From Escherichia coli (GTDB lineage: Bacteria > Pseudomonadota > Gammaproteobacteria > Enterobacterales > Enterobacteriaceae), in the NCBI RefSeq assembly GCF_044324785.1, contig NZ_CP172127.1: a DNA stretch of 64,000 nt; one strand, given 5' to 3'. Of the stretch, positions 55,031-55,486 are shown piece after piece. The notes beneath the pieces are model-generated. The model did not search any database. It worked only from the letters and a program-made list of their open reading frames with translations, and had not been told where the DNA came from. Both the position numbers and the translations under genes were made by a program. Position 1 is the stretch's first letter; the number at the start of each line of letters is the position of its first letter.

Positions 55031-55194
55031 GAACGAGTATTGAGATGGCACATAGCCTTGCTCAAATTGGAGTCAGGTTTGTGCCAATACCAGTAGAAAC
55101 AGACGAAGAATTTCATACGTTAGCCACATCCCTTTCACAAAAGCTGGAAATGATGGTGGCGAAAGCAGAAGCAGATGAGAGAGACCAGGTATGA
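55003..55194 (+). CDS. Hypothetical small phage protein
   Basis: 63-aa ORF, co-oriented, overlapping its neighbour. Confidence 0.4.
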   Translation: MHKASPVELRTSIEMAHSLAQIGVRFVPIPVETDEEFHTLATSLSQKLEMMVAKAEADERDQV

Positions 55195-55270
55195 CAACCA
55201 CTGAATGCATTTTTCTGGCAGCGGGCTTCATATTCTGTGTGCTTATGCTTGCCGGCATGGGGCTTGTTCA

Positions 55271-55486
55271 GTGACACCTCAGCAAGAAAACGCCCTTCGC
55301 AGCATTGCCCGTCAGGCTAATTCTGAAATCAAAAAAGCCAGACAGCAGTTTCCGGATAAAAACGTCGATGACATTTGCCGTAGCGTGCTAAAGAAGCACC
55401 GCGAAACGGTAACGCTGATGGGATTCACACCGACTCATTTAAGCCTGGCGATCGGCATGTTGAACGGCGTCTTTAAGGAACGATGA
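55271..55486 (+). CDS. Hypothetical small phage protein
   Basis: Frame of ORF 55205..55486; probable GTG start at 55271 overlapping the stop of a 27-codon hydrophobic mini-ORF. Confidence 0.3.
   Translation: MTPQQENALRSIARQANSEIKKARQQFPDKNVDDICRSVLKKHRETVTLMGFTPTHLSLAIGMLNGVFKER

What the first reader, a model, noticed from the sequence alone, without database searches (positions are those of the whole stretch)
55190..55273. 27-codon hydrophobic mini-ORF in the early-left region
ATG at 55190 (overlapping the preceding stop as ATGA) encodes MTTTECIFLAAGFIFCVLMLAGMGLVQ, a single TM-like peptide, and its stop overlaps a GTG start of the next ORF. Small membrane peptides in phage early regions can act as host inhibitors (Kil-like) or exclusion factors.
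Basis: inference. Interest (0 to 1): 0.3.

Follow-up and report, generated by a model that had tools for sequence, protein, structure and literature searches.

The report
Unannotated 27-codon membrane-peptide gene in lambdoid prophages
A 27-codon open reading frame between two early genes of a lambda-like prophage looks like a real, conserved gene for a tiny hydrophobic peptide; it sits in over half of complete E. coli genomes and in phage lambda itself, where a differently framed "orf61" annotation hides it, and its function is untested.

Summary
The ORF exists, one base right of the stated coordinates: 55191-55274 (+), encoding MTTTECIFLAAGFIFCVLMLAGMGLVQ. It lies in the exo-xis part of the leftward early operon of a lambda-like prophage at argU.

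- **Overlaps.** Its ATG overlaps the orf63 stop (ATGA). Its stop overlaps the start of the 71-aa Orf61 (GTGA here, ATGA in most relatives). The first overlap held in 253/253 sequences, including a mosaic where a DNA methyltransferase replaces orf63.
- **Selection.** In 257 sequences (27 haplotypes, 25 variants), 14 variants are synonymous in this frame. pN/pS is 0.22-0.32 (p 0.0003-0.004), stronger than for orf63, orf61 or a neighbouring 31-codon ORF.
- **Competing frame.** The frame annotated over this DNA (lambda orf61, 61 aa; Stx-phage orf61, 93 aa) shows no constraint (0.82).
- **Spread.** The DNA is in 3112 of 5426 complete E. coli genomes. All 60 sampled RefSeq records leave it unannotated. 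Some older GenBank records list the 27-aa "hypothetical protein".
- **Relatives.** No family, distant homologue or accessible paper describes it.

Best reading: a translated, coupled cistron whose single-helix membrane peptide matters in itself. The Kil-like or exclusion role is speculation. Translation, membrane location and target remain untested.

The parts
55191..55274 (+). 27-codon mini-ORF plus stop, encoding MTTTECIFLAAGFIFCVLMLAGMGLVQ. The majority allele elsewhere has D at residue 22.
   Evidence: pN/pS is 0.22, binomial p=2.5e-4, in 257 sequences. The result holds with transition bias, p=0.0005-0.004. The ORF is intact in 256/258 mini-ORF-type loci.
55191..55194 (+). ATGA overlap: mini-ORF start and orf63 stop
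   Evidence: Conserved in 253/253 sequences, including 33 where the upstream gene is a DNA N6-adenine methyltransferase instead of orf63.
55177..55183 (+). Purine-rich GAGAGAG, a weak Shine-Dalgarno-like element 7 nt upstream of the ATG
   Evidence: Duplex with the 16S 3' end is -5.6 kcal/mol. In the methyltransferase context a GGGAGG (-10.3 kcal/mol) sits 3-4 nt upstream of the same ATG.
55271..55274 (+). GTGA overlap: mini-ORF stop and start of the 71-aa Orf61
   Evidence: ATGA in 220 related sequences and GTGA in 33. PGAP and the phage 434 annotation start orf61 here.
55003..55194 (+). orf63 (DUF1382), the upstream cistron
   Evidence: PHROG 292, E=4e-36.
55271..55486 (+). orf61, true 71-aa form, the downstream cistron
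   Evidence: PHROG 303, E=5e-36. In phage SfI the homologue starts at the equivalent codon with its own GAGG and no mini-ORF. pN/pS is 0.51 in this frame.
55205..55270 (+). Competing annotation: N-terminal extension of the '93-aa Orf61' (ATG at 55205, frame +2), overlapping the mini-ORF. Judged not coding.
   Evidence: Annotated in phi24B, Stx1 phage and phage Turner. In this frame pN/pS is 0.82 and 8 of 9 common variants are non-synonymous. There is no SD-like sequence at usable spacing.
55483..55578 (+). Neighbouring 31-codon ORF, ATGA-coupled to the orf61 stop. A precedent for tiny coupled cistrons in this operon.
   Evidence: pN/pS 0.35. Reported as translated ('orf2313') in lambda ribosome profiling according to PMC8614690.

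Best explanation
The 84 bases between orf63 and orf61 are a genuine cistron of the N-antiterminated leftward (pL) early transcript.

Ribosomes that finish orf63, or in some mosaics a methyltransferase gene, restart at the overlapping ATG. They translate 27 codons and terminate on a TGA that overlaps the (A/G)TG start of the 71-aa Orf61. The mini-ORF therefore passes ribosomes to a gene with a weak ribosome-binding site.

The product is a 27-residue peptide. It has a short polar N-terminus (MTTTE), a 16-21-residue hydrophobic helix and no basic residues. It most likely inserts into the inner membrane as a single helix. There it probably acts by binding a host or phage membrane protein early after induction or infection.

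Shown here:
- the ORF and its two overlaps;
- their conservation across relatives;
- selection on the amino-acid sequence;
- lack of constraint in the annotated alternative frame.

Inferred, not shown: translation itself, coupling, membrane insertion, and any trans-acting target.
For: (1) Anatomy. The overlaps are ATGA at the start and GTGA/ATGA at the end. The start overlap is kept in 253/253 sequences. The same operon uses ATGA overlaps at bet/exo, exo/orf60a and orf61/31-aa ORF.

(2) Mosaic boundary. In 33 loci orf63 is replaced by a DNA methyltransferase gene. The junction falls exactly at the mini-ORF ATG, again as ATGA, with GGGAGG just upstream.

(3) Selection. Among 25 variants in 257 sequences, 14 are synonymous and 11 non-synonymous.
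- All 14 third-position changes are silent.
- pN/pS is 0.22 (p=2.5e-4), or 0.24-0.32 (p=0.0005-0.004) with kappa 1-10.
- Synonymous variants are common and non-synonymous ones rare (Mann-Whitney p=0.011).
- 224/257 sequences encode the identical peptide despite 27 nucleotide haplotypes.
- The signal is stronger than in orf63 (0.56), orf61 (0.51) and the 31-aa ORF (0.35).

(4) Integrity. Only 2 of 258 mini-ORF-type loci carry indels, and both are poor assemblies.

(5) Hydrophobicity exceeds what base composition gives (0.3% of open shuffles). Insertion energy is predicted to be favourable or borderline.

(6) orf61 truly starts at 55271. Phage SfI has it with its own start, GAGG and no mini-ORF. 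PGAP picks the 71-aa form. Published modelling found residues 1-23 of the 93-aa form outside the fold (PMC8614690).
Against: - I could not access any direct evidence of translation. The lambda ribosome-profiling paper is not held. A review of it lists only 7-aa and 31-aa new ORFs in this region.
- All relatives are at least about 93% identical, so the test rests on 25 shallow, non-independent polymorphisms.
- No distant homologue exists in 1.84 billion representative proteins.
- One antisense frame shares third positions and also scores low (0.33).
- The peptide has no basic flanking residues. The majority allele has Asp at residue 22, which leaves a hydrophobic core of only 16 residues.
- The SD-like sequence is weak in the orf63 context, -5.6 kcal/mol here and -3.1 in lambda.
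- Orf61 functions without the mini-ORF in SfI-type phages.
Confidence: 0.6

Rival explanations
1. Coupling-only spacer ORF. The 27 codons are translated only to carry ribosomes from orf63 to the weakly initiating orf61. The peptide is a by-product with no function of its own.
For: Both ends overlap their neighbours. The orf61 start has a weak SD, -3.9 to -4.7 kcal/mol, and is GTG in this window. SfI-type phages lack the mini-ORF and give orf61 its own GAGG. The peptide has no homologues or family.
Against: Coupling alone needs only an open frame. Yet pN/pS is 0.22-0.32, non-synonymous variants stay rare, and 87% of sequences encode an identical peptide. The hydrophobicity is far above what composition predicts.
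Confidence: 0.17
2. The DNA is the N-terminal part of a longer Orf61. This would be 93 aa from the ATG at 55205, as annotated in Stx phages, or lambda's 61-aa orf61 from an ATG equivalent to 55175. The 27-codon frame would then be incidental.
For: The longer forms are annotated in lambda, phi24B, Stx1 phage and phage Turner, and are built into PHROG 303 and PHROG 26061. The 93-aa form is open in every sequence seen.
Against: - In that frame pN/pS is 0.82 and 8 of 9 common variants change the amino acid.
- This window has a TGA at 55202 in lambda's frame.
- Lambda's ATG is ACG in 52 sequences.
- Lambda's 61-aa form ends because of an extra A found in only 3 of 255 sequences with a readable A-run.
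- The SfI homologue starts at the 71-aa position.
- There is no SD-like sequence at usable spacing.
- The translated extension, MHFSGSGLHILCAYACRHGACS, is not protein-like. Published modelling left residues 1-23 outside the fold.
Confidence: 0.08
3. There is no sense-strand coding here. The region would be an untranslated spacer, an RNA element, or part of the antisense 61-aa ORF (55073-55258, minus strand).
For: The antisense -1 frame shares third positions with the mini-ORF and scores pN/pS 0.33 (p=0.007). The ORF is very short and current RefSeq leaves the stretch unannotated.
Against: - The same shadow effect appears antisense to orf61, where that frame contains stops.
- Four third-position variants are silent in the sense frame but change the antisense product. 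One of them destroys the antisense start ATG in 12 sequences.
- The part of the antisense ORF that overlaps orf63 is unconstrained (0.75).
- There is no significant antisense promoter and no Rfam hit.
- The RNA folds less well than its shuffles (z=+1.5).
Confidence: 0.05

Closest known systems
Bacterial small single-helix membrane proteins such as KdpF (29 aa), AcrZ (49 aa), MgrB (47 aa) and CydX (37 aa). Named from my own knowledge, not tested here.
   Same: Under 50 residues. One hydrophobic helix makes up most of the peptide. Usually missed by annotation pipelines. The expected mode of action is binding to a larger membrane protein.
   Different: No sequence similarity to any of them. It has no basic residues to set its topology. 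It is encoded in a phage early operon and translationally coupled on both sides. Membrane location and partner are unknown.
Lambda 31-aa ORF 'orf2313' (window 55483-55578), reported from ribosome profiling as cited in PMC8614690
   Same: Same operon, about 200 bp downstream. It is tiny and its start overlaps the preceding stop (ATGA/GTGA). Polymorphism shows purifying selection (pN/pS 0.35).
   Different: The sequence is unrelated and only partly hydrophobic. It overlaps a terminator-like hairpin. Translation has been reported for it, whereas I could find no such report for the 27-codon ORF.
Lambda Kil (47 aa, pL operon, blocks FtsZ assembly through ZipA; PMC3961180)
   Same: A small peptide encoded in the leftward early operon and dispensable for plaque growth.
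   Different: No sequence similarity, with no Pfam hit of any kind. It sits at a different place in the operon (kil lies between cIII and gam). From my own knowledge, Kil is not a transmembrane peptide.
Orf61 of lambda and Stx phages (PHROG 303 / 26061)
   Same: It occupies the same DNA as the annotated 5' part of orf61 and is always found directly upstream of the 71-aa Orf61 core.
   Different: It uses a different reading frame and makes a different product. The annotated extension frame shows no selective constraint.
Type I toxin peptides such as Ibs, ShoB, TisB, Ldr and Hok. Named from my own knowledge.
   Same: Similar size range (about 18-50 aa) and strongly hydrophobic, so toxicity on overexpression is possible.
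   Different: No match to their Pfam families. No antitoxin sRNA family in the region. It is not a stand-alone locus but an internal cistron of an operon.

Membership tests
Translationally coupled cistron (overlapping stop/start, termination-reinitiation) | The start codon overlaps the upstream stop, and the stop overlaps the downstream start | tested here: met
   ATGA at 55191-55194 and GTGA at 55271-55274. The start is ATGA in 253/253 sequences. The end is ATGA in 220 and GTGA in 33.
Translationally coupled cistron (overlapping stop/start, termination-reinitiation) | Expression of the downstream gene depends on translation of the upstream one | not testable with these tools
   This needs reporter fusions with premature stops. 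The only indirect support is the weak SD at the mini-ORF and orf61 starts.
Small single-helix membrane proteins (functional class) | Under 50 aa, with a hydrophobic segment long enough to span the membrane | tested here: inconclusive
   The peptide is 27 aa. For this window's G22 allele a 21-residue window sums to -2.9 kcal/mol on the Hessa scale. For the majority D22 allele it is about 0, with a 16-residue uninterrupted core. I used a position-independent scale, not a dedicated predictor.
Small single-helix membrane proteins (functional class) | The peptide is made and found in the membrane fraction | not testable with these tools
   No expression or localisation data were accessible.
Protein-coding gene (evolutionary criterion) | Excess of synonymous over non-synonymous change in the proposed frame only | tested here: met
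   pN/pS is 0.22 (p=2.5e-4) in the sense frame. It is 0.70-1.04 in four other frames and 0.33 in the third-position-sharing antisense shadow.
Lambda Kil family | Sequence similarity to Kil | tested here: not met
   The Pfam scan returned no family at E<=1. The PHROG scan gave only E~0.6 generic 'membrane protein' hits.
Lambda Kil family | Expression causes filamentation through FtsZ/ZipA | not testable with these tools
   This needs an experiment.
Orf61 (PHROG 303), long form | The region 55205-55270 is coding in the orf61 frame | tested here: not met
   pN/pS is 0.82, with 1 synonymous and 8 non-synonymous common variants. The SfI homologue lacks this extension.
Type I toxin-antitoxin peptides | Match to a toxin family, plus an antisense or adjacent sRNA antitoxin | tested here: not met
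   No Pfam or NCBIfam hit. No Rfam family in 52000-58500 other than the tRNA.
Known anti-phage defence or superinfection-exclusion proteins (PADLOC) | Match to a defence-system protein model | tested here: not met
   No PADLOC hit for the peptide, orf60a, orf63 or orf61.

The most novel reading that the evidence does not exclude
The 27-residue peptide is a previously unrecognised early host-takeover factor of lambda and Shiga-toxin phages. It would act inside the inner membrane on a host protein, for example a protease, transporter, division or DNA-entry component. It would then account for part of the lysis/lysogeny, survival and adsorption phenotypes published for 'orf61' deletions. Judged from the annotated coordinates, those deletions also remove or truncate it. 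In lambda the annotated Orf61 is itself a frameshifted chimera.
Probability: 0.25. Interest if true: 0.65.

Novelty: new member of a known kind. Interest (0 to 1): 0.45.

Why it matters
- **A probable gene in lambda has been hidden by a mis-framed annotation.** Lambda is the best-studied phage. The reference "orf61" is out of frame over its first 32 codons. It is then cut short by an extra A seen in only 3 of 255 sequences with a readable A-run. Structural, two-hybrid and deletion work on lambda Orf61 may therefore have used a non-natural protein.
- **Published phenotypes may need reassigning.** Judged from the annotated coordinates, the orf61 deletions in lambda and phi24B also remove or truncate this mini-ORF. 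Those phenotypes cannot yet be assigned to Orf61 alone.
- **It is widespread and unannotated.** The DNA is present in 57% of complete E. coli genomes, including Shiga-toxin prophages. All 60 RefSeq records sampled leave it unannotated.
- **It is cheap to test.** Tagging, a stop-codon allele and inducible expression would each give a clear answer.

Tried and rejected
- **Distant homologues.**
  - A 32-aa natural variant searched against 1.84 billion representatives found only near-identical copies, fusions and chance TM hits.
  - The apparently divergent Orf61 relatives (51-73% identity) were error-ridden assemblies or an IS-disrupted copy, not real divergence.
- **Family searches.** Pfam, NCBIfam, PHROGs, PADLOC and PDB sequences gave nothing for the peptide.
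- **RNA explanations.** Rfam gave only the tRNA. The RNA folds less well than its shuffles. There is no meaningful promoter or terminator at the ORF.
- **Antisense 61-aa ORF.** Considered and rejected as a third-position shadow.
- **Programmed -1 frameshift.** I considered a shift that would fuse the TM peptide to Orf61. Reading the sequence showed no X-XXY-YYZ slippery site near the 3' end. The T-run at codons 7-8 would discard the hydrophobic helix. Rejected by inspection only.
- **Lipoprotein or signal peptide.** There is no lipobox and no basic n-region, by inspection.
- **Direct translation evidence.**
  - The lambda ribosome-profiling paper is not held, nor is a lambda review I tried.
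  - The O157:H7 Sakai small-gene supplements do not contain the peptide.
  - A full-text search for the peptide string found no paper.
  - Other literature searches found nothing on this ORF.

Full report
**Observation**

The window holds an ATG at 55191-55193 and an in-frame TGA at 55272-55274, which gives a 27-codon ORF encoding MTTTECIFLAAGFIFCVLMLAGMGLVQ. The ATG overlaps the stop of the preceding 63-aa ORF as ATGA. The stop overlaps a GTG at 55271 as GTGA.

**Context**

The + strand here carries gam (53087-53383), bet, exo, orf60a, orf63, the mini-ORF, orf61, a 31-codon ORF, a TraR-like orf73 and an integrase (56328-57491). These are followed by a tRNA at 57510-57583 (minus strand; argU by my identification) and a gene I identify as fimZ. 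A cI-like repressor and cro, cII, O and P homologues lie upstream. This is the leftward early operon of a lambda-like prophage, specifically its exo-xis region. The stretch is 97% identical to phage lambda and 95-99% identical to about 180 phage records, many of them Shiga-toxin phages.

**What is annotated on this DNA**

No phage or RefSeq record I opened annotates the 27-codon ORF: lambda twice, 434, phi24B, Stx1 phage, Turner, mEp332 and two E. coli chromosomes. Three conflicting versions of orf61 are annotated instead.

- **Lambda's orf61 (61 aa).** It starts at an ATG equivalent to 55175 and crosses the mini-ORF in another frame.
- **Stx-phage orf61 (93 aa).** It starts at the ATG at 55205 in that same frame.
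- **The 71-aa form.** PGAP and the phage 434 annotation start it at 55271 and leave the 76 bases upstream empty.

The alignment explains lambda's version. This window has a TGA at 55202 in lambda's frame. Lambda carries an extra A in an A-run, which truncates the gene. Only 3 of the 255 sampled sequences with a readable A-run have that extra A.

**Which orf61 start is real**

In phage SfI and 14 similar loci, the Orf61 homologue begins seven codons before the conserved NALRSIARQ motif, exactly as the 71-aa form does. A GAGG lies 6 nt upstream, the upstream gene is unrelated, and there is no mini-ORF. A published modelling study also found that lambda Orf61 looks truncated. It reported that residues 1-23 of the 93-aa phi24B protein are not a consistent part of the predicted three-helix fold (PMC8614690). 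Orf61 is therefore the 71-aa protein. The 80 bases before it are either a separate cistron or a spacer.

**Comparative test**

I collected 279 loci containing a 21-nt anchor just inside orf61, from IMG/VR, metagenomes and annotated records. Their upstream regions sort as follows:

| Type | Loci |
|---|---|
| Ungapped mini-ORF | 256 |
| SfI-type, no mini-ORF | 15 |
| Cut by a contig end | 6 |
| Indels | 2 |

The two loci with indels are an assembly full of frameshifts and a 1.3x-coverage contig.

With the window included there are 257 sequences, 27 haplotypes and 25 distinct variants. In the mini-ORF frame 14 variants are synonymous and 11 are not, and all 14 third-position changes are silent.

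| Region and frame | pN/pS | p |
|---|---|---|
| Mini-ORF, sense frame | 0.22 | 2.5e-4 |
| Mini-ORF, with transition bias kappa 1-10 | 0.24-0.32 | 0.0005-0.004 |
| Annotated orf61-extension frame | 0.82 | 0.41 |
| orf63, own frame | 0.56 | 0.068 |
| orf61, own frame | 0.51 | 0.0059 |
| 31-codon ORF, own frame | 0.35 | 0.017 |

Synonymous variants are the common ones (up to 97 copies). Non-synonymous variants are rare (Mann-Whitney p=0.011). In all, 224 of 257 sequences encode one identical peptide. In the extension frame, 8 of 9 common variants change the amino acid.

One antisense frame shares third positions with the mini-ORF and scores 0.33. The same shadow appears antisense to orf61, where that frame contains stop codons. 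Four sense-silent variants alter the antisense product, and one of them removes its start codon in 12 sequences. The part of the antisense ORF that overlaps orf63 is unconstrained.

**Gene-boundary evidence**

In 33 loci orf63 is replaced by a DNA N6-adenine methyltransferase gene. The mosaic junction falls exactly at the mini-ORF ATG. The ATGA overlap is recreated and a GGGAGG lies 3-4 nt upstream. The start overlap is ATGA in 253/253 sequences even though the last two codons of orf63 vary. The operon uses the same device at bet/exo, exo/orf60a and orf61/31-aa ORF.

**Initiation signals**

SD-like pairing is weak at the mini-ORF start in the orf63 context: -5.6 kcal/mol here and -3.1 in lambda. 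It is also weak at the orf61 start, at -3.9 to -4.7 kcal/mol, and that start is GTG in this window. This fits a relay of terminating and restarting ribosomes. The difference from SfI's own orf61 site (-5.6) is modest, so coupling is an inference and not a result.

**The peptide**

- GRAVY is 1.73, and only 0.3% of stop-free shuffles of its codons reach that value.
- The best 21-residue window sums to -2.9 kcal/mol on a position-independent Hessa scale for this window's G22 allele. It is about 0 for the majority D22 allele, whose uninterrupted hydrophobic core is 16 residues.
- It has no Lys or Arg, no lipobox and no signal-peptide n-region (by inspection).
- This window's G22 allele is rare (6 of 257).

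**Other explanations checked**

The RNA folds less well than its shuffles (z=+1.5). Rfam finds only the tRNA. There is no meaningful promoter or terminator at the ORF. I saw no slippery site that could fuse the helix to Orf61 by frameshifting.

**Distribution and prior knowledge**

The interior 73 bases occur in 3112 of 5426 complete E. coli genomes (4151 copies). All 60 records sampled across the ranking show no annotated feature there. The exact peptide is nevertheless present in public protein collections as a 27-aa 'hypothetical protein' from some GenBank E. coli annotations (for example KNY58316.1) and under a UniRef entry. The D22 form was seen on at least 981 contigs.

It has no Pfam, NCBIfam, PHROG, PADLOC or PDB relative. 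It has no distant homologue among 1.84 billion representatives. The Orf61 family itself is confined to E. coli-type sequences.

No accessible paper contains the peptide string or describes a hydrophobic ORF between orf63 and orf61. A review of the lambda ribosome-profiling study lists only a 7-aa and a 31-aa new ORF in this block. I could not read the study itself, so it may have detected footprints here and credited them to orf61.

**Interpretation**

The most likely reading (about 0.6) is a translated, doubly coupled cistron whose hydrophobic peptide is itself under selection. It probably works as a single-helix inner-membrane peptide early after induction. A coupling-only role (about 0.17) is the main rival, weakened by the amino-acid-level constraint. 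The long-Orf61 reading (about 0.08) and the non-coding or antisense reading (about 0.05) fit the data poorly.

**Consequences**

Judged from the annotated coordinates, the published orf61 deletions would also remove or truncate the mini-ORF. These replaced lambda 30839-31024 and the 93-aa ORF in phi24B (PMC6213356). Their exact end points are not in the text I read, so this is an inference. The effects reported on lysogenisation, survival and adsorption therefore cannot yet be assigned to Orf61 alone. Work done with lambda's 61-aa 'Orf61' probably used a chimeric, frameshifted product.

**Verdict**

This is a real feature, most likely a genuine small gene, and a new member of a known kind (small hydrophobic peptides encoded by phage early operons). 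Interest is moderate. The mechanism is unproven, but the locus is in lambda itself, is extremely widespread and is easy to test.

Noticed in passing
window 55271-55486; L001 (lambda) 1834-2019: Lambda's reference orf61 (61 aa) is a frame chimera. Its first 32 codons are out of frame relative to the conserved 71-aa Orf61. An extra A (A7 instead of A6) truncates its tail. Only 3 of 255 sampled sequences with a readable A-run carry A7, so the lab lambda allele looks like a rare frameshift mutant.
   Followed up: yes
window 55271-55486: RefSeq names many copies of the 71-aa Orf61 'cell division protein ZapA'. The only support is a sub-threshold Pfam ZapA hit (E=0.014, 16.1 bits against a cutoff of 23.8), so the name is probably spurious.
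   Followed up: partly
window 55483-55578: A 31-codon ORF overlaps the orf61 stop (ATGA here, GTGA in the consensus). It shows purifying selection (pN/pS 0.35) and contains a terminator-like hairpin with a T-run at 55507-55525. Coding and termination signals seem to share the same bases.
   Followed up: partly
window 54171, 54848, 55191, 55271, 55483: Five consecutive gene junctions in this operon use a 4-base (A/G)TGA stop/start overlap: bet/exo, exo/orf60a, orf63/mini-ORF, mini-ORF/orf61 and orf61/31-aa ORF. This suggests a long chain of translational coupling.
   Followed up: partly
L007 347-904 and 32 other loci: In about 13% of sampled loci orf63 is replaced by a DNA N6-adenine methyltransferase gene. 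The recombination joint falls exactly at the mini-ORF start codon.
   Followed up: partly
window 43800-47800 and 56328-57583: The prophage sits at argU beside fimZ. Next to its replication genes it carries genes I identify as emrE, ybcK, ybcL and ybcM. It looks like a much more complete relative of the K-12 DLP12 remnant.
   Followed up: no
window 55254-55256 (codon 22): This window encodes Gly at residue 22 of the peptide. Of 257 sequences, 247 have Asp, 6 Gly and 2 Asn, and two others differ elsewhere. The Gly allele removes the only charge inside the C-terminal half and makes the predicted helix clearly membrane-spanning.
   Followed up: partly
L091 700-2020; P0069, P0061, P0105: Rare rearranged copies exist. 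They include an IS3-family insertion in orf61, an in-frame deletion joining the mini-ORF to the C-terminal part of Orf61 (73 aa), and apparent orf63-mini or mini-orf61 fusions. Some of these are probably sequencing errors.
   Followed up: no
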